Source: a virus
Taxonomy: Duplodnaviria > Caudoviricetes
IMG/VR virus record: IMGVR_UViG_3300032373_000045
Location: 1-39,048 of that record
Reading direction: 5' to 3' (one strand)
Length of the DNA stretch: 39,048 nt
This document shows positions 1 through 39,048 of this stretch, in pieces. A program made the translations under genes and the position numbers. The notes under the pieces were generated by a model. It saw only the letters and a list, made by a program, of their open reading frames with translations. It was not told the DNA's origin and did not search any database. Positions within the stretch are counted from its first letter, which is position 1; the number at the start of each line of letters is the position of its first letter.

Positions 1-139
1 GGCTTTTATAATTACATGGTGACAGGATGAGTTTAATTGAGAAGCTGATAGACCCTATATCTACAATACTAGATAAAGTAGTTCCTGATGCTGACACAAA
101 AGCTAAACTAGCGCATGAGATAGCAACCCTAGCCGATAC
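1..139. repeat. Terminal direct repeat, left copy (circular/assembly overlap)
   Basis: Bases 1-139 match 38910-39048 except T13 vs G38922. Confidence 0.97.
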
Positions 140-9648: not shown

Positions 9649-10971
9649 GTGGATAAGTTACTAGAGGCTAGAGATTTAGCTGATACAGAACCAGATACAG
9701 CGTTAAGAATAGTTAATGATGTATTGAATGATGATTTTAATGACCCTCAAGGGCTGTTTATGGCAGCTTATATACTTATGCAAGCTGGTAAGTATGGTAT
9801 GGCTTACAACCTGTTTAAAAGGTCAGGTGAGCATACAGGCGATCACACTCAACTATATAACAATATGGGGATGTGTTTTGGTGATGAGGACAATGATGAG
9901 GCAGTTAAATGCTTTGACCGTTCATTAGAGTTAGACCCAAAGAATGAGAAGGCATTATCTAATAAGGCTTTAACCTTATTGAAGAACAAAGACCCGAAAG
10001 GAGCTGAGAAGTTATGCAGACAATCGGTAAGAATAGACCCAAACCTAAGAGCAGCACACGATAACTTAGGGCTTTCATTGTTAATGCAGAGGAAGTGGAA
10101 AGAAGGCTGGAAAGAGTTTGCTTGGGGTTTAGGTGGTAAGCATAGGAAGAAGCTAGATTACGGTGTTCCTGATTGGGATGGTAAAGCTAAAGGCAACTTA
10201 GTTGTTTATGGTGAGCAAGGTATAGGTGATGAGATAATGTTCGCCTCTTGTATCCCTGATGTATTGAATGACTGTAATCACTTGTCTATTGTTTGTGACA
10301 GTAGATTAGAGGGAGTTTTTGGTAGGTCTTTTGATGCTTATGTATCAGGCTCAAGATATGATAAAGGTGACAATGTTAACTTACCTGTTATGCCTGATTA
10401 TCAATGCTCGATAGCTGACTTACCTAGATTCTATAGAAACAAGCATAAGGACTTCACTGGCACTAGCTATTTAAAGGCTGACCCTGAGAGATGCATTCAA
10501 TGGAGAGCTTTACTAGACCAACATAAGGGCAAGAAGATAGGCATAGCTTGGACAGGTGGCTTACCTAGTACCATGAAGCATAGAAGGTCTATCGACTTAG
10601 AAACATTAGCGCCTTTGTTTGAGACAGATAACACGTTTATATCCCTAGAATACAAGCAACCAGATCAAGAATTACTTGACCAATATGGTATAATTCATTG
10701 GGATAGAGCTGTAAGTAAAGGTGTTGATTATGATGAGACACTAGCTCTTATTAATGAGTGTGACTTAATCATATCGGTATGCACTACGGTCATTTATGGC
10801 GCTGGAGCATTAGGCAAAGAGTGTTGGGTATTAGTACCTGAAACGCCTAGCTACAGATACCATTTAACAGGGGATTTCCCTTGGTATAAGTCAGTAAAAT
10901 TATTAAGGCAGGAGGACACATGGGAAGCATTAGTAGCCCGTATAAAGGCGAAACTTTTAAAATATTCATAG
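9649..10971 (+). CDS. TPR-repeat protein with a C-terminal GT-B (GT9-like) glycosyltransferase domain
   Basis: N-terminal TPRs (YNNMGMC, ALSNKAL, AHDNLGL), then EQGIGDEIMF, KIGIAWTGG and CDLIISVCT...AGALGK motifs. Confidence 0.8.
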   Translation: MDKLLEARDLADTEPDTALRIVNDVLNDDFNDPQGLFMAAYILMQAGKYGMAYNLFKRSGEHTGDHTQLYNNMGMCFGDEDNDEAVKCFDRSLELDPKNEKALSNKALTLLKNKDPKGAEKLCRQSVRIDPNLRAAHDNLGLSLLMQRKWKEGWKEFAWGLGGKHRKKLDYGVPDWDGKAKGNLVVYGEQGIGDEIMFASCIPDVLNDCNHLSIVCDSRLEGVFGRSFDAYVSGSRYDKGDNVNLPVMPDYQCSIADLPRFYRNKHKDFTGTSYLKADPERCIQWRALLDQHKGKKIGIAWTGGLPSTMKHRRSIDLETLAPLFETDNTFISLEYKQPDQELLDQYGIIHWDRAVSKGVDYDETLALINECDLIISVCTTVIYGAGALGKECWVLVPETPSYRYHLTGDFPWYKSVKLLRQEDTWEALVARIKAKLLKYS

Positions 10972-11618
10972 GTTATGACCCAGCAGAGACAATAGCTTAT
11001 CACGTTTTATGTCACTCGATATTAGCTAGGTCATCTATACCAGTATCATTCACTCCGATTAATAAGAATAATATCCCTTCATTTACTAGGGGCATTGAAG
11101 ATGGAAGCACTGAGTTTTCATTCTCAAGATTCTTAACCCCTTGGCTAAGTGGGTTTAAGGGCAAGTCTTTGTTTATGGACTGCGATATGATTGTATTATG
11201 TGATATAGCTGAGATATTAGAACACCATGACCCATTTGCGGCTGTTCAAGTAGTGAAGCATGACTATGTATCTACTTGCAAGACTAAGTTTCTAGGCAAT
11301 ATTCAACATGAATACCCTAAAAAGAATTGGTCAAGTGTTATGTTGTTTAATAACTACAATGCGGCTTGTTGTAGACTATCACCTGATAAAGTTAATACAG
11401 AGTCAGGTAAATACTTGCATCAATTTGAATGGTGTCCAGAAGATAGGGTAATGGAGCTTCCTGTAGAGTTTAATCACTTAGTTGGTGAGTATCCTGAGAA
11501 TCCAGACGCTAAGATTATACATTTCACTTTAGGCACTCCATGTTTCAAAGGTTATACGGAGCAAGAGTACGCTAATGAGTGGTTTAAAGAGCGTGATGCA
11601 ATGTTAGCTCATGTTTAA
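10920..11618 (+). CDS. Glycosyltransferase, GT-A fold (GT8-like)
   Basis: IFIGYD, STEFSFSRF, DxD in FMDCDM, KNWSSVMLFN and IIHFTLGTP motifs; GGAGG RBS. Confidence 0.85.
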   Translation: MGSISSPYKGETFKIFIGYDPAETIAYHVLCHSILARSSIPVSFTPINKNNIPSFTRGIEDGSTEFSFSRFLTPWLSGFKGKSLFMDCDMIVLCDIAEILEHHDPFAAVQVVKHDYVSTCKTKFLGNIQHEYPKKNWSSVMLFNNYNAACCRLSPDKVNTESGKYLHQFEWCPEDRVMELPVEFNHLVGEYPENPDAKIIHFTLGTPCFKGYTEQEYANEWFKERDAMLAHV

Positions 11619-11627
11619 GGGGGAAGT

Positions 11628-12161
11628 ATGTTAATAAGTGACGAATACAGAAAACAACAAGAAAAGATGCATGAGAACCCTAATTATGGGGTAGCTTCTA
11701 TAAGCTTTGCGCCTTTTGTTACAGATATTATAAATAAAACTGGGCACGAAGATATATTAGACTATGGCGCTGGTAAGGGTAACTTAGGTAAGCACTTAAC
11801 CCCTAATCATAAGATATATATCACGCACTATGAGCCAGCTAACCCAGATTGGGCTGATACCCCAGAAGAACATGACTTAGTTTGCTGTATTGATGTATTA
11901 GAGCATATAGAGCCTGAATTATTAGATAACGTGCTAGATGACCTTCAAAGAGTCACTAAAAAGCTCGGCATCTTCACTGTTCACACTATGCCAGCAGCTA
12001 AAACGCTTCCTGATGGTAGGAATGCGCACTTAATACAACAGCCTCCTGCTTGGTGGCTACCAAAATTCTTAGATAGGTTTGAATTGGTAAGTTTTGGAGC
12101 TATGTCAAACGGCTTCAAGATAATTGTTACCCCTCTCAAGCCTGTAATAGTAACTCAATAG
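11628..12161 (+). CDS. Class I SAM-dependent methyltransferase
   Basis: ILDYGAGKG (motif I) and CCIDVLEHI motifs. Confidence 0.85.
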   Translation: MLISDEYRKQQEKMHENPNYGVASISFAPFVTDIINKTGHEDILDYGAGKGNLGKHLTPNHKIYITHYEPANPDWADTPEEHDLVCCIDVLEHIEPELLDNVLDDLQRVTKKLGIFTVHTMPAAKTLPDGRNAHLIQQPPAWWLPKFLDRFELVSFGAMSNGFKIIVTPLKPVIVTQ

Positions 12162-12169
12162 GTTAATTA

Positions 12170-12787
12170 ATGGCTTTAGATACTTACGCAAATTTAAAAA
12201 CATCTATCAAGGTTTGGACTCATAGGGATGACCTAGACTCTGTGACTGATGATTTTATAGACTTATGTGAAGGCATGATCTACTCCAACACAGACCAAGG
12301 CTTGTTAGTTAGAGAGATGGAAACATCTGACACTACGGCTGTAGGCACTCAGACAATGGCCTTACCTACAGGCTTCATCAAAATGCGAAAGCTAACTATA
12401 TCTGTTGGAAGTAATGAAACAGATGTAAGGTTTGCAACACCAGAAAGCTTAAACAAATCTTCTGCCTCTGGTCAGCCTAAAAACTTCACAGTAACCTCCC
12501 AAATAGAGTTTGATAGATCACCTGACGCCACATATACCTTTAATCGCGTATATCTGGCTAAAGCTACCGCTCTCAGCACCTCAAACACCACTAACGCCAT
12601 ACTAACTAACTATCCTCAGATATATCTGCAAGGCTGCTTATGGGCGGCTTATATGTACACAGGAGAGGAAGAAAAAGCCTCTAGTGCATGGACTTTGTTC
12701 ATTAACGGCATTCGAGGTGCTAATAAGACTTATAAGAAGGGGTTTAGCCCTGCTAGTTCAATGAGAAGTGAAGCGAGCACCCCATAA
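12170..12787 (+). CDS. Head-to-tail adaptor protein
   Basis: MALDTYANLK..I..W.HRDDL start and N.IL..YP..YL.G.L motif; precedes the hub protein. Confidence 0.8.
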   Translation: MALDTYANLKTSIKVWTHRDDLDSVTDDFIDLCEGMIYSNTDQGLLVREMETSDTTAVGTQTMALPTGFIKMRKLTISVGSNETDVRFATPESLNKSSASGQPKNFTVTSQIEFDRSPDATYTFNRVYLAKATALSTSNTTNAILTNYPQIYLQGCLWAAYMYTGEEEKASSAWTLFINGIRGANKTYKKGFSPASSMRSEASTP

Positions 12788-28990: not shown

Positions 28991-29440
28991 TCACATCTCT
29001 CTCCTCATATCATTAGCTCTTTCTGCCGAATCTAAAATAGAATTAATCTCATCATCAAGCTGGCTCATAGTTTCTTTATATGGATTAACCTCTTCAACCC
29101 AATGCGGAATATCCTCAACTAGCAGCTCAAACATCTTGAACAATTCTCGATTAAGTATGCAGCACCAAGTACCTTTTAAGTATGGTACGCCACCTTTTAG
29201 GACAGGATTATTAAGTGACTTAATATCATTGGCATCTATACCAAAGCCGCTATCTACTAATTCCTCCTCCCAGTCTTTCACATTCTCCTTTATCCACTCA
29301 GCAAACACTCTCTCACTATTCATAATATGGTGATAAGCTGCTTCATAAGTATAAGCCTTATCGAATACCGCTTCTGCTTCAGCACATAAGAATAGCTGTG
29401 CATCTTGTCCGTAGGTTTCTTTAAAATCTGAATAATTCAT
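28991..29440 (-). CDS. Hypothetical protein, first gene of the leftward operon
   Basis: GAGGAGG RBS; no HTH or peptidase S24 features seen. Confidence 0.75.
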   Translation of the reverse strand: MNYSDFKETYGQDAQLFLCAEAEAVFDKAYTYEAAYHHIMNSERVFAEWIKENVKDWEEELVDSGFGIDANDIKSLNNPVLKGGVPYLKGTWCCILNRELFKMFELLVEDIPHWVEEVNPYKETMSQLDDEINSILDSAERANDMRREM

Positions 29441-29464
29441 AATTCCCTCCTCAATGTTTAACTA

Positions 29465-29493
29465 ATTATTGCACACTATATAATGATTAGCAA
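29465..29493 (-). promoter_or_regulatory. Leftward early promoter (pL-like)
   Basis: TTGCTA-N17-AATAAT with an extended TGn. Confidence 0.65.
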
Positions 29494-29525
29494 TAGCCAT
29501 TCTTAAATTAATTATAATGATTCGC

Positions 29526-29554
29526 TTGCATTAGGTATAGTTATTTGTAATAAT
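29526..29554 (+). promoter_or_regulatory. Rightward early promoter (pR-like)
   Basis: TTGCAT-N17-AATAAT with an extended TGn. Confidence 0.65.
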
Positions 29555-29583
29555 AAGCATATCAAGAATTATAAGGAGTTGAA

Positions 29584-29754
29584 ATGAAGTTGATTTTAGA
29601 TGATAAGCAGATTGGGGAAGCTATGGGGGAGTATGTTGCTCGTCATAACATGGCTTTAGGTTATAGCTATGCTGACTTTGTAATGAGAGTTAAAACCGAT
29701 AAAGATGAACCAGTGTTCACTTGTGAAGTAGAGCTATCAGGGGAAAAGAAATGA
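29584..29754 (+). CDS. Small hypothetical protein (56 aa, MKLILDDKQIG...)
   Basis: Hand-translated; AAGGAG RBS; ATGA overlap with the Cro-like gene. Confidence 0.7.
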   Translation: MKLILDDKQIGEAMGEYVARHNMALGYSYADFVMRVKTDKDEPVFTCEVELSGEKK

Positions 29755-29942
29755 GAGTAACTATACAAGATTACATGGATAAGAAGAAGCTTAACCAATC
29801 TGAGATGGGGAGAATGTTCGGCCTTACTCAGCCAGCTATTAACACTTACATAAGCTCTGATCGTGAAGTTTATGTTGTTGACGGAATGGCAGGACTTCAA
29901 ATAGTAGAAAGAAAGGTTTTAGCAACGAGGATAGAGAAATGA
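29751..29942 (+). CDS. cro: Cro-like HTH regulator
   Basis: RVTIQDY...NQSEMGRMFGLTQPAIN..I...REVYV parallels lambda Cro. Confidence 0.75.
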   Translation: MRVTIQDYMDKKKLNQSEMGRMFGLTQPAINTYISSDREVYVVDGMAGLQIVERKVLATRIEK

Positions 29943-30175
29943 GCCTAACAGATGACAACATAAAGACAAGGGTAAGCCAGCTTCTTAATGAGAAGTCAAA
30001 TACCTTTGCTGATTTAAACGATTACAAAGAGGCTAAAGCTTTTGCTGATAACATGGTTGAGATGGATATAGAGATAGCTAGTTCTATCCAAGTCCTGTTA
30101 CATCGTGTTGAGACTTTATTTCATCAAGAGCAAGAGCAAGCTAACTTTGAAGCTAATAGCGAGGAGATGGGATAA
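29939..30175 (+). CDS. Hypothetical protein (cII position)
   Basis: 78-aa coupled ORF. Confidence 0.65.
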   Translation: MSLTDDNIKTRVSQLLNEKSNTFADLNDYKEAKAFADNMVEMDIEIASSIQVLLHRVETLFHQEQEQANFEANSEEMG

Positions 30176-30239
30176 TGGCTAGATACGCAAAAGACTTGAT
30201 TAATAAGTAAGGATATGTTTTAATTGTAAATTCCTTTCT

Positions 30240-30322
30240 CGTAGAAAGACGAAATCCCAGACTTGCGACAGACTAGGATTCCGAGGGGAGGGACACCAGA
30301 AAGGAAAAGTTTCTGATGTATG
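30240..30322 (-). ncRNA. Putative antisense small RNA (~85 nt, two hairpins)
   Basis: Has its own promoter; the stems at 30294-30318 and 30251-30282 pair fully only on the minus strand (via G:U). Confidence 0.55.
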
Positions 30323-30328
30323 TTACTA

Positions 30329-30357
30329 AAGGTAACACATATTTGAAGATGGTACAA
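30329..30357 (-). promoter_or_regulatory. Antisense promoter
   Basis: TTGTAC-N17-TACCTT with an extended TGn. Confidence 0.55.
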
Positions 30358-30620
30358 GCCCTTACTGGACATTAACAACTGTTGCTGACGGATGCCCTGA
30401 AACAGTCATTAACTGGTGGGATGTTGTAAGCGCAACTTTAAATGGACAGCTTGTAATCTTACTCAAGGATTCCCAAGACTGACAATGAGAGTAAGTCCCA
30501 ATTAAAGGGATTCTAAGAATTAACCAACTTAGAATATCAGGAGTAGTTTAGTTCAATCCTGAAACACAAGTACCCAGCCGTAAAGGTAGCCTTGGTAGGG
30601 CTTTAAAGGGGAAAGTCTTT
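30358..30620 (+). ncRNA. Putative structured non-coding RNA / origin region
   Basis: No ORF of 60 aa or more; consecutive stems at 30378-30406, 30458-30495, 30496-30510, 30511-30534 and 30537-30562. Confidence 0.5.
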
Positions 30621-30624
30621 AGTA

Positions 30625-30954
30625 GTGCCCAAAGGAAAGCGAATGTGGTATGTATATTTTATAAGGCAAGCACAAAAGAAAGGGAACTGCCCAATAAAGA
30701 TCGGGGTTAGTAAAGACCCAGATTATAGGTTGAAGCGTTTACAGACAGGAAACCCGAACAAGTTAGAGGTTATTGCGGCTATACCTTTTGATATTGAGAA
30801 AGACGCTTACACTATGGAAAGGTCTTTACACTGGATAGCTGAGAATAAATACCAAAGATTAATAGGCGAGTGGTTTATGATTTATGGTGGATGGAAAGGG
30901 CTGGTTGAGGATGCTTACAAGTCAAGCGGGTTATTCCCCAAAGGCTCTAAATGA
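30625..30954 (+). CDS. GIY-YIG family protein (T5orf172/MUG113-like)
   Basis: YVYFI...IKIGVS..P..RL..LQTGNP...E..LH...GEWF; start may be ATG 30643. Confidence 0.85.
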   Translation: MPKGKRMWYVYFIRQAQKKGNCPIKIGVSKDPDYRLKRLQTGNPNKLEVIAAIPFDIEKDAYTMERSLHWIAENKYQRLIGEWFMIYGGWKGLVEDAYKSSGLFPKGSK

Positions 30955-30973
30955 TAACTATGGGAGAAGAGTA

Positions 30974-31183
30974 ATGAGCAGATACGCATTAATAGGAATC
31001 CAACCAAATACTTTAGAGGTTTTATATCTGGCTGTGTGCGGGGATCATTTACAAGAGCATTGGAGTGATATGCCAAAAGAATTAATCCCTGCAATAGTCC
31101 CTATAGAAAAAGCAAGAGAAATGAGTTTTGTAGAGGCAAAGGAAGATCAACTAACAGAGCATATTTTTAAAGGCGAGATATGA
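30974..31183 (+). CDS. Hypothetical protein
   Basis: Start MSRYAL at 30974 with a GGAG RBS. Confidence 0.6.
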   Translation: MSRYALIGIQPNTLEVLYLAVCGDHLQEHWSDMPKELIPAIVPIEKAREMSFVEAKEDQLTEHIFKGEI

Positions 31184-31311
31184 ACCAGCGCAAATCAAAA
31201 ACGCTACAGGAAATGATGTATATCCAGAGGCTTGATTTTCTAATTAACGAGTTCAATATATTTTGGGTGATACAGATAATTTTATTAATAGAGTTTTGGA
31301 GATTGATATGA
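31180..31311 (+). CDS. Small hypothetical protein (43 aa, hydrophobic C-terminus)
   Basis: Hand-translated; ATGA overlaps at both ends. Confidence 0.45.
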   Translation: MNQRKSKTLQEMMYIQRLDFLINEFNIFWVIQIILLIEFWRLI

Positions 31312-31592
31312 TTCCTGATTTGCCTGACTTCATAGGGGCTGAAGAGTGGGATGGATTCGTAGACATGAGAGCAGCCCAAAAGAAGCCTTTAACTGACCGA
31401 GCAAAAAAGATATTTTTGAAAAAGCTTGCAGCGTGGCATCAAGAAGGCTATGATTGCAACAAGATTTTAGATAATTCAACAGAAAGCTCTTGGGGAAAGC
31501 TGTATCCAAAGCCTGAATTTTTAAGAGGTGGAGAGAAGGCTCAGTTAGAAGCTAAGATATATAAGATCACAGATAGGAGTTGGGCAAAATGA
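31308..31592 (+). CDS. Stand-alone C-terminal domain of a phage replication initiator (O-like)
   Basis: LPDFI...W..F..MR...KKPLT.RA....L.KL...GYD...ILD.S...W..L pattern; ATG 31308 with a GGAGA RBS. Confidence 0.65.
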   Translation: MIPDLPDFIGAEEWDGFVDMRAAQKKPLTDRAKKIFLKKLAAWHQEGYDCNKILDNSTESSWGKLYPKPEFLRGGEKAQLEAKIYKITDRSWAK

Positions 31593-32239
31593 CCATAGAG
31601 CTAATACAAGGCGATTGCATGGACTACATGAAAGAGCTTGAGGATAACGCTTTTGAGCTTGCGATTGTAGACCCGCCTTATGGGATTAAACGCCTAAGCG
31701 TGGAAGAAAACCGTGATCCGAACAGTAAGTTTAGGAGGTCGATGTCAAAAATGGTTGATTCTGCAAAAAGCTGGAATGGCTTGAAGCCAACAGAAGAATA
31801 TTTTAATGAGCTTTTTAGGGTAAGCCGAGAGCAGATTGTTTGGGGAGCAAACAACTTTACGCTTCCTAATACTGAATATTTTTGTATTTGGGATAAGTTT
31901 CAAACTGTAGATAATTTTGCAAGCGCGGAGTATGCGTGGGTATCAATGAATAACTGGAAAAAGCCAGCTAAGGTTTTTAGGCATCAAATACATGGGGCTA
32001 ACCCTTTAGGGAAAATCCACCCCACCCAAAAACCAGTAAAGCTATACGAATGGCTTTTAAAGAACTACGCCAAAGAGGGTGACAGAATTTTAGACACTCA
32101 CTTAGGCTCAGGCTCAAGTGCGATAGCTGCGCATTATGGCGGTTTTGATTTTGTTGGAATTGAGCTAGACGAAGATTATTACAAAGCGGCAGCAGACAGA
32201 TTTGATATGCAAACTAGACAACAAGCGATGGAGATGTAA
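31589..32239 (+). CDS. DNA N6-adenine/N4-cytosine methyltransferase (beta class)
   Basis: IVDPPY, HPTQKPV.LY and LDTHLGSGS motifs. Confidence 0.93.
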   Translation: MTIELIQGDCMDYMKELEDNAFELAIVDPPYGIKRLSVEENRDPNSKFRRSMSKMVDSAKSWNGLKPTEEYFNELFRVSREQIVWGANNFTLPNTEYFCIWDKFQTVDNFASAEYAWVSMNNWKKPAKVFRHQIHGANPLGKIHPTQKPVKLYEWLLKNYAKEGDRILDTHLGSGSSAIAAHYGGFDFVGIELDEDYYKAAADRFDMQTRQQAMEM

Positions 32240-32706
32240 TGAAAGCAACGTCAGATTTTAACGGCAGGACTCATGCCCCAGTTACGCTGGGAACTGTTGA
32301 GGGCACGGCCACCCATAAAATACTTAATTTTATTAGTGGGGAATGCTCAAGGAATGAAATATCACTATTAACAGGAGTTAGATCACAGGCTCTTAGTGCG
32401 CCACTAAGTCTTTTATGTAATGCTGGCTTATTACTTAAAAGGTCAGGGTCGCATGAGAAAAGGATGTATTATAGATTGCCCGGTGTTGAGCAAGAAGATC
32501 AAGAAGCCAAGCCTTTCATGTGTACTCGGTGTTTATCTACAGTCACCCCAAAAGGTAAAGGAAAGCTAACTTGTATTATGTGCGAAGATGATGATTCTGT
32601 TTCTTCCCACGGGGATAATGGAGATAGATGGATGGGAAGAGGCTGGGATGAGAAATTAAGTATGGAGTATTTAACTAAACCAATAGCAATGAGGAGAGAT
32701 GCATGA
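32239..32706 (+). CDS. Winged-HTH plus zinc-finger protein
   Basis: SRNEISLLTGV...LS..L..L...GLL, then CTRC...CIMC. Confidence 0.55.
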   Translation: MKATSDFNGRTHAPVTLGTVEGTATHKILNFISGECSRNEISLLTGVRSQALSAPLSLLCNAGLLLKRSGSHEKRMYYRLPGVEQEDQEAKPFMCTRCLSTVTPKGKGKLTCIMCEDDDSVSSHGDNGDRWMGRGWDEKLSMEYLTKPIAMRRDA

Positions 32707-32903
32707 TAAAAATTGTGAGAGTAACAGACGCTAAAGCTTTGAATCCATCTCAGGCTGTTTACCAGCTTGTAAAGAATGACAGTGAAGTTTTGCGGTTTGA
32801 AAGTGAGAAAACAATGCCTGAAGTATTGAAGGCTGCTGCTTGGGCTTTTGAGTCACAGAGAAAAGAGCTACACAAGAAATTGATTGAGGAGAGCATAAAA
32901 TGA
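32703..32903 (+). CDS. Hypothetical protein
   Basis: Coupled 66-aa ORF. Confidence 0.65.
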   Translation: MIKIVRVTDAKALNPSQAVYQLVKNDSEVLRFESEKTMPEVLKAAAWAFESQRKELHKKLIEESIK

Positions 32904-33226
32904 AAATAGGCGTAAGTTTAAAGATTAATGTCAGCAAGATTGATAAGGCTAGATTATTTAAGGGAGATAAAGGAAGCTATTTAGATGCTACTGCTTTTAT
33001 TGACCTTGAAGAGTTTGACCAATACGGCAACTCAGGCATGATTACTCAGGATGTAACTAAGGAAGAGAAGGAGCAGGGAGTGAAAGGAGCTATTCTAGGC
33101 AACTCTAAGATATTTTGGAGTGATAGAGGAACAGCAAGCCAGACGGGAATCATAAATGAGCCGCCAAAGAAAACGCCTGTATCTAATCAGGCTGATGATG
33201 ATTTTGAAAATGATTTGCCCTTCTAG
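32900..33226 (+). CDS. Putative single-stranded DNA-binding protein
   Basis: Acidic tail ending DDDFENDLPF; INVSKIDK...DQYGN...ILGN core. Confidence 0.7.
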   Translation: MKIGVSLKINVSKIDKARLFKGDKGSYLDATAFIDLEEFDQYGNSGMITQDVTKEEKEQGVKGAILGNSKIFWSDRGTASQTGIINEPPKKTPVSNQADDDFENDLPF

Positions 33227-38447: not shown

Positions 38448-38939
38448 GTGAAAACACTATATGATAATTTAATTAAAGAAGCTGTAGCAGAATATTTACC
38501 TACTACAGATTGGAGATTGCTAAAAGCTCAGTATTACCAAGAGTCATTGTTAGACCCTAATGCTGAAAGTCAAGTAGGTGCATTAGGCATAGCACAATTC
38601 ATGCCTAAGACTTGGGATGAGTGGAGCGTTAAAGCAGATTTTAAAGATGTAGAGCGTACTGACCCTGAGGCTTCAATATTCACAGGTGCTTTATACATGA
38701 GATGGCTAATAGCTGAATGGAGCTGGCCTAGACCTGATATAGATAGACATTGTTTAGCAATGGCTAGTTACAATGCAGGAATTGGCAATATTCTGGAAGC
38801 TCAGAAGGCTGCACACGATTCAATATCATACTCAAGCATAGCCAACAGCTTACCATCAGTTACAGGGGAACATTCCAGAGAGACTATTTGGTATGTTAAA
38901 AAGATACTAGGCTTTTATAATGACATGGTGACAGGATGA
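38448..38939 (+). CDS. Endolysin, lytic transglycosylase (SLT domain)
   Basis: QES, GA.GIAQFMP.TW, ASYNAG.GN and ET..YV..I motifs. Confidence 0.92.
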   Translation: MKTLYDNLIKEAVAEYLPTTDWRLLKAQYYQESLLDPNAESQVGALGIAQFMPKTWDEWSVKADFKDVERTDPEASIFTGALYMRWLIAEWSWPRPDIDRHCLAMASYNAGIGNILEAQKAAHDSISYSSIANSLPSVTGEHSRETIWYVKKILGFYNDMVTG

Positions 38940-39048
38940 GTTTAATTGAGAAGCTGATAGACCCTATATCTACAATACTAGATAAAGTAGTTCCTGATGC
39001 TGACACAAAAGCTAAACTAGCGCATGAGATAGCAACCCTAGCCGATAC
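38910..39048. repeat. Terminal direct repeat, right copy
   Basis: Matches 1-139 with one mismatch. Confidence 0.97.

What the first reader, a model, noticed from the sequence alone, without database searches (positions are those of the whole stretch)
30176..31592. Candidate new system: RNA-based, antisense-controlled replicon replacing the O initiator's DNA-binding half
Seen: at the position where lambdoid phages carry O with internal iterons and P/DnaB/DnaC, this genome has (i) a possible weak sense promoter (TTGATT-N17-TTTAAT, 30196-30224), (ii) a ~400-nt structured non-coding region with a G-rich tract GAGGGGAGGGA (30283-30293), (iii) an antisense RNA over its 5' end, and (iv) a 94-aa protein matching only the C-terminal domain of O-type initiators, with its own RBS. 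I saw no iterons, helicase, loader, primase, integrase or CI. Known: ColE1 replicons use a long folded pre-primer RNA inhibited by a 5'-overlapping antisense RNA and need no origin-binding Rep; O C-terminal domains recruit the helicase machinery. Inference: the RNA (R-loop/primer or scaffold) defines the origin, the mini-O recruits host helicase, and the antisense RNA sets copy number or a plasmid-like carrier state. An alternative is an RNA-based attenuation/immunity switch, as with P4 CI or P1 C4.
Basis: partly seen in the sequence, partly recalled or inferred. Interest (0 to 1): 0.85.

Follow-up and report, generated by a model that had tools for sequence, protein, structure and literature searches.

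The report
Headless phage initiator beside structured RNA
This phage has, where a close relative has a normal replication-initiator gene, a 450-base non-coding block and only the tail half of the initiator; many other phages pair such half-initiators with folded RNAs, which likely act as an RNA-made replication start, though this is untested.

Summary
The core observation holds and generalises. The circular 39-kb phage has a ~450-nt ORF-free block, an unmentioned T5orf172 nuclease gene and a 94-aa stand-alone O C-terminal domain (mini-O), with no iterons, helicase, loader or integrase found. The closest relative (L271) has full O with repeats plus a P-like loader in the same slot, and no gap. 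Stand-alone O domains of two unrelated types are a widespread phage class. Profiles built from RNA-first loci hit 10 of 26 stand-alone loci and 0 of 46 full-length loci. The RNAs include a new pseudoknotted family with compensatory changes and Rfam's Betaproteobacteria-1. They lie upstream, downstream or divergent, so they are not leaders of mini-O. Limits: the window's own block matches no family; only its minus strand (30228-30449) folds beyond chance; promoters are at chance level; family A also occurs in phages with full O or a primase-helicase; no expression or replication data exist. Best reading (0.45): transcription makes an R-loop or primer origin, mini-O brings in helicase, and a small RNA gates it. 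Main rival: a regulatory RNA, with mini-O working at recombination intermediates.

The parts
29751..29942 (+). Cro-like HTH gene (context, start of the rightward early operon)
   Evidence: Pfam Cro/HTH_37, below the curated cut-offs
30196..30224 (+). possible weak sigma-70 promoter for the long RNA
   Evidence: sequence; not listed by the scan, and promoter hits are at chance level; relatives have clearer promoters at the same spacing, by eye
30228..30330 (-). predicted small antisense RNA: outer 9-bp stem (30231-30239 with 30298-30306), inner hairpin, single-stranded C-rich loop complementary to the G tract
   Evidence: minus z -3.5 versus plus -0.1; stem; fold
30283..30293 (+). G-rich tract; its complement pairs with purine-rich leaders of leftward early genes
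30331..30449 (-). further hairpin that favours the minus strand; the antisense RNA may extend to about 30449
   Evidence: (z -4.2 for 30228-30449, only -1.6 for 30315-30449 alone)
30456..30485 (-). possible antisense promoter (TTGTCA-18-TAAGAT)
   Evidence: 9 of 12 consensus matches, chance level
30231..30630 (+). ORF-free block, candidate long RNA or origin
   Evidence: no long ORF; folding not above shuffles; no Rfam match; no match to the RNA families of relatives
30643..30954 (+). T5orf172 (GIY-YIG-like) nuclease gene, probably a passenger
   Evidence: Pfam PF10544, E 9e-10
31308..31592 (+). mini-O: stand-alone C-terminal domain of O-type initiators, three-helix core
   Evidence: phrog_678 and phrog_6451; model pLDDT 86; homologues

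Best explanation
The phage carries a 450-nt non-coding block and a stand-alone O C-terminal domain where a close relative has full-length O and P, and the block likely serves as a transcription-opened (R-loop or RNA-primer) replication origin at which mini-O is predicted to bring in the host helicase, gated by a small RNA over the block's 5' end. Shown: the anatomy, the module swap against L271, the pairing of stand-alone domains with folded RNAs across phages, and covariation in family A. Inferred: (1) a rightward transcript stays hybridised to its template and exposes single-stranded DNA, doing the job that O's N-terminal domain and iterons do; (2) mini-O binds that DNA and recruits DnaB, through a phage loader where one is encoded or fused, and through host proteins here; (3) the 5' small RNA switches read-through or folding and may also dampen early genes; (4) the window's block belongs to the same functional class although its sequence is unrelated.
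For: Module swap: L271 shares synteny and 77% identity in the phosphoesterase and has Cro, a 68-aa gene, a 265-aa O with A-rich repeats and a P-like loader (phrog_109, E 1e-14) with no gap. Class: 2418 representatives at E<=1e-3; I picked 43 short forms with the domain at the N-terminus from the best 150; the three top Atlas clusters are viral, 90-107 aa; full-length forms carry HTH_36, DUF1376, Phage_rep_O or DUF4373 N-termini. Pairing, protein-first: 10 of 26 versus 0 of 46 (Fisher p 1e-5; 0 of 30 in the closer control set, p 1.5e-4). Pairing, RNA-first: Betaproteobacteria-1 pattern, 4 of 6 independent scorable loci have a stand-alone domain within 700 nt; family A, 13 of 25 distinct elements, 10 of 22 without the three seed phages (grouped by eye); both complete circular GenBank phages hit by family A (MW202674.1, MW202484.1) have a 124-127-aa stand-alone domain and no annotated helicase, primase or full O. 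Two domain types that do not align pair with both RNA families. The RNA lies upstream, downstream (MW202484.1), divergent (L129, L141, L215) or about 10 kb away (G023), so it is no leader of mini-O. Family A: 14 of 27 pairs with double changes, two crossing helices, 0 of 500 shuffles as high. Mini-O is fused to or followed by phrog_10105 proteins, two of which weakly match helicase-loader phrog_2289. ColE1 precedent: PMC3640518, passages.
Against: The window's block matches no RNA family and its sense strand is not significantly folded. Family A also occurs with full-length initiators: G010 (O, CHC2 zinc-finger protein, DnaB; RNA about 11 kb away) and G003 (HTH_36 O-like; RNA before the capsid gene), and next to a primase-helicase (L233) or a helicase (L249). 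16 of 26 stand-alone loci had no hit to the RNA-first profiles. 2 of 6 Betaproteobacteria-1 loci, and the 10 kb read of MW202545.1, have no stand-alone domain. No plasmid hit for either RNA, although a portable origin might be expected there. Loci are related: the tree needs 12 label changes, but only 2 are forced by strong branches, so the p values overstate independence. The DnaD-like fold match is inconclusive (2i5u, Z 4.3, rmsd 2.9, 60 aligned). G023 has tandem repeats flanking mini-O.
Confidence: 0.45

Rival explanations
1. The RNA block is regulatory (P4 CI-like attenuation or immunity, an anti-Shine-Dalgarno small RNA, or an antitermination RNA), and mini-O works as a DnaT-like restart adaptor at recombination intermediates without a fixed origin.
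For: Relatives' 5' modules show an upstream segment complementary to the loop of a long stem followed by a U run: 7 of 41 stand-alone versus 1 of 53 'full' loci with stem >=12 and segment >=8, and that one (L150) proved stand-alone. This is the layout described for P4 CI/seqA (PMC4825925, passage). Rha/antirepressor-like genes follow in several loci (by eye). The window's C-rich antisense loop pairs with leftward early leaders better than shuffled loops (0.7% of 1000 as good). The genome has NinB, NinG and exonuclease-like genes. Family A precedes capsid or other late genes in some phages.
Against: A generic anti-SD gives the same left>right>late ordering, and the loop test was post hoc. Regulation does not explain why a 250-nt pseudoknotted body tracks loss of O's DNA-binding half, nor its position- and orientation-independence. 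Downstream late genes have their own promoter-like sites, by eye.
Confidence: 0.3
2. The conserved structure acts as single-stranded DNA (a primosome-assembly or single-strand origin) rather than as RNA, and mini-O recognises it.
For: Covariation cannot separate RNA from ssDNA; PMC5737381 section 24 makes this point for plasmid motifs. Position independence fits a DNA site.
Against: The elements follow a promoter and a terminator-like switch and keep their orientation to it; invariant or common G-U-type pairs fit RNA better.
Confidence: 0.12
3. In this phage the block is unrelated to mini-O: a small-RNA gene plus spacer left after an endonuclease-linked rearrangement removed O's N-terminus and P.
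For: No homologue of the block; a T5orf172 gene and tiny ORFs separate it from mini-O; the 3' half is not significantly folded.
Against: Mini-O is intact, with an RBS and a C-terminal motif shared with other short forms; no other initiator was found in an apparently complete genome; intervening genes are common in relatives.
Confidence: 0.13

Closest known systems
ColE1-type replicon (RNA II primer, RNA I antisense)
   Same: Promoter, long non-coding transcript with an overlapping small RNA at its 5' end, no origin-binding initiator; ColE1 uses RNA II, RNase H, Pol I, then PriA and DnaB (PMC3640518 passages).
   Different: No sequence or Rfam match; found in tailed phages; accompanied by an O-derived domain; bodies are 200-400 nt and pseudoknotted; in relatives the switch looks sense-encoded.
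Lambdoid O/P initiation module
   Same: Same genomic slot after cro (L271); homologous C-terminal domain; P-like or other loaders follow in many relatives.
   Different: No N-terminal DNA-binding domain, no iterons, and no loader in this genome.
P4 CI RNA / Gifsy-1 IsrK (and, from recall, P1 c4)
   Same: Small RNA with complementary upstream and internal segments controlling termination ahead of replication genes (PMC4825925 passage).
   Different: No Rfam hit; the window's small RNA is predicted on the opposite strand; a long conserved non-coding body follows instead of a short ORF.
Betaproteobacteria-1 RNA (Rfam RF02932)
   Same: Found above the gathering score upstream of mini-O in L151, L201 and L069.
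   Different: The window's block does not match it; Rfam lists it only as an sRNA; the source paper's supplement could not be read.
ARRPOF, GEBRO and PAGEV plasmid motifs
   Same: 223-349-nt motifs proposed to act in replication; ARRPOF lies in a region sufficient for Rep-independent replication (PMC5737381 section 24).
   Different: Plasmid-borne; no Rfam match here; no link to an O-type domain reported in the section read.

Membership tests
ColE1-type replicon | RNA II/RNA I homology | tested here: not met
   no Rfam match in the window or relatives; no plasmid match
ColE1-type replicon | antisense RNA overlapping the 5' end of a long transcript | tested here: inconclusive
   minus-strand folding z -4.2; promoters at chance level; no RNA data
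ColE1-type replicon | R-loop, RNase H and Pol I-dependent initiation | not testable with these tools
   needs bench work
ColE1-type replicon | no origin-binding Rep | tested here: met
   none among the scanned ORFs; the wHTH also occurs beside full O
Lambdoid O/P module | O C-terminal domain | tested here: met
   phrog_678, E 3e-12
Lambdoid O/P module | N-terminal DNA-binding domain and internal iterons | tested here: not met
Lambdoid O/P module | adjacent P/DnaC/DnaB gene | tested here: not met
   the next gene is a DNA methylase
DnaD/DnaT-like ssDNA-binding domain | fold | tested here: inconclusive
   no Foldseek match at E<=1e-3; DnaD domain 2i5u Z 4.3, tied with unrelated rows; DnaT cluster at 0.86 by features
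P4 CI-type switch | upstream segment complementary to the loop of a long stem, then a U run, on the sense strand | tested here: not met
   the detector finds none in window 29001-33000, though it does in several relatives; it is insensitive
Family A RNA (defined here) or Betaproteobacteria-1 | profile match of the window's block | tested here: not met

The most novel reading that the evidence does not exclude
A widespread, undescribed class of phage replicon in which pseudoknotted RNAs (a new family, Rfam's Betaproteobacteria-1 and others) replace the DNA-binding half of O and its iterons, opening an origin that a free O C-terminal domain converts into a helicase-loading site, under small-RNA control that could allow a plasmid-like carrier state without CI or integrase.
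Probability: 0.4. Interest if true: 0.9.

Novelty: new variant of a known kind. Interest (0 to 1): 0.72.

Why it matters
It would add an RNA-defined origin to the known ways tailed phages start replication, explain how many small environmental phages replicate with no recognisable initiator, and give a testable function to a Rfam motif and to a new pseudoknotted RNA family. Because the modules are under 1 kb and position-independent, the test is a simple origin-cloning experiment. Even if the RNA is regulatory, its association with headless initiators was not found in the literature searched.

Tried and rejected
No relatives of the window's block were found: blastn of phages, profiles, a scan for mini-O with the shared C-terminal motif (only this phage), and neighbour-anchored scans (18 loci; 4 loci) gave one close relative, L271. 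No RNA holder was listed for the region, which says nothing on expression. GC skew flips near 29.5 kb with transcription direction and cannot place an origin. Two long-range complements in the block (8 nt 30324/30617, 7 nt 30356/30597) recall family A's loop-to-3'-end pairing but are within chance and are not counted. Other matches of the 5' half elsewhere in the genome (<=11 nt) look like chance. The wHTH was rejected as initiator. A sequencing frameshift hiding a full O was rejected. Four named phage records with type-2 domains that I opened (Venkman, CP2, 10KY502B, ctXG6705) have longer O-like genes, so no cultured mini-O phage was found. Fold searches gave no clear match. No complex prediction was run. 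Literature searches showed no paper on this pairing; the library lacks most subscription journals, and the supplements of PMC5737381 (unreadable) and PMC10690425 (not opened) may list these RNAs and their gene context.

Full report
Observation. The window is a 39-kb tailed phage (terminase, portal, head protein, holin, endolysin). Its ends repeat over 139 nt with one mismatch, so it is probably a complete circle, although the record is classed linear and 61% complete. Among the ORFs scanned none is a helicase, loader, primase, integrase or CI; about 12.2-24.1 kb was not scanned and looks structural by eye. No iteron-like family was found in the early and regulatory region. The sense strand of the block folds no better than shuffles (z -1.0; 3' half z -1.3). 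The minus strand of 30228-30449 does (z -4.2 to -4.4; lowest sliding value -5.8), with G-U pairs that would be mismatches on the plus strand. Promoter-like sites are at chance level. So an antisense RNA is a reasonable prediction, and a folded sense RNA is not shown.

A natural control. L271, found through two neighbouring genes, is syntenic with the window and carries in this slot a 265-aa O with A-rich repeats and a P-like loader, starting right after the preceding gene. It also has the wHTH gene, which is therefore not a substitute initiator. Block plus mini-O and O plus P are alternative modules.

The protein class. phmmer gave 2418 representatives. From the best 150 I took 43 short proteins with the domain at the N-terminus; some may be contig-edge fragments. 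Full-length relatives carry varied DNA-binding N-termini. The model is a confident three-helix core with no clear structural match. Several mini-O genes are fused to or followed by phrog_10105 proteins, two of which weakly match a helicase loader. That O C-terminal domains engage loaders and that DnaT/DnaD domains bind ssDNA is recalled; for DnaD I saw only the title and passages of PMC10201434.

Protein-first survey. Motif scans (120 loci, 80 with flanks; 23; 68; 5) gave, after dropping 5'-truncated loci and near-copies, 44 stand-alone loci (one is this phage) and 52 full-length loci. I listed 17 loci by hand as stand-alone, and later moved L150, where an open upstream frame had no initiator-like N-terminus and a start codon sat at the domain. 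Searches required an RBS-like word, which enriches short forms. Profiles built from RNA-first loci, without the seeds that were the same phages, hit 10 of 26 stand-alone and 0 of 46 full-length loci with at least 1 kb upstream (13 of 43 and 0 of 52 overall). Of 30 non-coding bodies that I delimited by hand, 17 join one superfamily, 3 are Betaproteobacteria-1, 2 match each other and 8 are singletons; the window's block matches none. Rfam found Betaproteobacteria-1 in three stand-alone loci and nothing in the 20 controls (19 full-length plus L150) or the 5 full-length loci. The loci are not independent: the domain tree needs 12 label changes against 25 for shuffles, only 2 forced by strong branches, and its bootstrap had not settled.

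RNA-first survey. A pattern from the shared core gave 39 loci, 25 distinct by eye. Thirteen have a stand-alone domain, seven of the window's type and six of a second type that does not align to it; three of the thirteen were seeds. Of the other twelve, four lie in phages with another replication module (G003 HTH_36 O-like; G010 full O, zinc-finger protein and DnaB; L233 primase-helicase; L249 helicase), one 27-kb record showed mostly late genes, and the rest are fragments. This is the main result against exclusivity. Both complete GenBank phages hit by family A have a stand-alone domain and no annotated helicase, primase or full O. A Betaproteobacteria-1 pattern gave 8 loci: one already known, one cut by the contig end, and 4 of the other 6 with a stand-alone domain. 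The RNAs lie before, after, opposite to or far from mini-O.

Structure. In 16 family A sequences, 14 of 27 named pairs show changes on both sides, including two crossing helices, one of them joining an internal loop to the 3' end. The structure was derived from this alignment and the shuffle control ignores relatedness, so the counts are supportive, not a probability. Upstream, relatives carry a promoter and a long stem with a U run whose loop is complementary to an upstream segment, the layout described for P4 CI (PMC4825925, passage). The window differs: its small structured RNA is predicted on the minus strand, with a C-rich loop that pairs with early leftward leaders better than shuffled loops (0.7% of 1000), though a generic anti-SD shows the same ordering.

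Mechanism. The simplest reading of a self-contained, position-independent RNA unit that tracks loss of O's origin-binding half is that it supplies the origin: transcription leaves an RNA-DNA hybrid or primer and exposes ssDNA, as in ColE1 (PMC3640518, passages), and mini-O loads helicase there. Phages with both the RNA and a full initiator would then have two origins, or use the RNA otherwise. All mechanistic steps are inferred, and the window's membership rests on position and architecture alone. I put 0.45 on this, 0.30 on a regulatory RNA with origin-less, recombination-linked initiation, 0.12 on an ssDNA structure, and 0.13 on an unrelated remnant in this phage.

Known and new. It works like a ColE1 replicon but fails the homology test, and it is not an intact O/P module. 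PMC5737381 (passages and section 24; supplement unreadable) proposes replication roles for other, plasmid-borne motifs and does not name Betaproteobacteria-1 in its main text. PMC10690425 (term search of the main text only) does not mention initiators or origins. Ten searches showed no description of the pairing. Verdict: a real and general association with a strong, cheaply testable hypothesis; interest 0.72.

Noticed in passing
L215-L253, L294:5127-5400, L295:33625-33870: A ~250-nt conserved RNA family with two covarying pseudoknots, without an Rfam match, in phage contigs.
   Followed up: partly
L151:142-267, L201:736-857, L069:2201-2324, L303-L310: Rfam Betaproteobacteria-1 sits in phage contigs, mostly just upstream of a stand-alone initiator C-terminal domain.
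   Followed up: partly
3' ends of bodies in L043, L127, L131, L135, L147, L167, L182; linkers of full O in L003, L149, L171, L206: Many RNA bodies end in a G-rich tract whose reverse complement resembles the C-rich tract just before the C-terminal domain in some full-length O genes; possibly one ssDNA signal. By eye, not counted.
   Followed up: no
L267:10949-11230 and 12232-12507 (G023): Tandem repeats on both sides of a mini-O gene, with family A RNA about 10 kb away.
   Followed up: no
L010, L132, L137, P0078: Natural fusions of mini-O with a phrog_10105 (DUF6475-bearing) loader-like protein.
   Followed up: partly
window 29450, 28833, 27491, 26216 (minus strand): Leftward early genes share long purine-rich leaders complementary to the predicted antisense loop.
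   Followed up: partly
window 9649-12161: A TPR and glycosyltransferase-like gene, a second glycosyltransferase-like gene and a methyltransferase lie among head genes, perhaps for virion modification (the first two labels by eye; methyltransferase).
   Followed up: no
window 1-139 and 38910-39048: Terminal repeat with one mismatch shows a circular assembly that the record's class missed.
   Followed up: yes
L293:4100-5200 (MW202545.1): A Betaproteobacteria-1-like element follows an apparent tRNA cluster in a phage with a primase-like gene.
   Followed up: no
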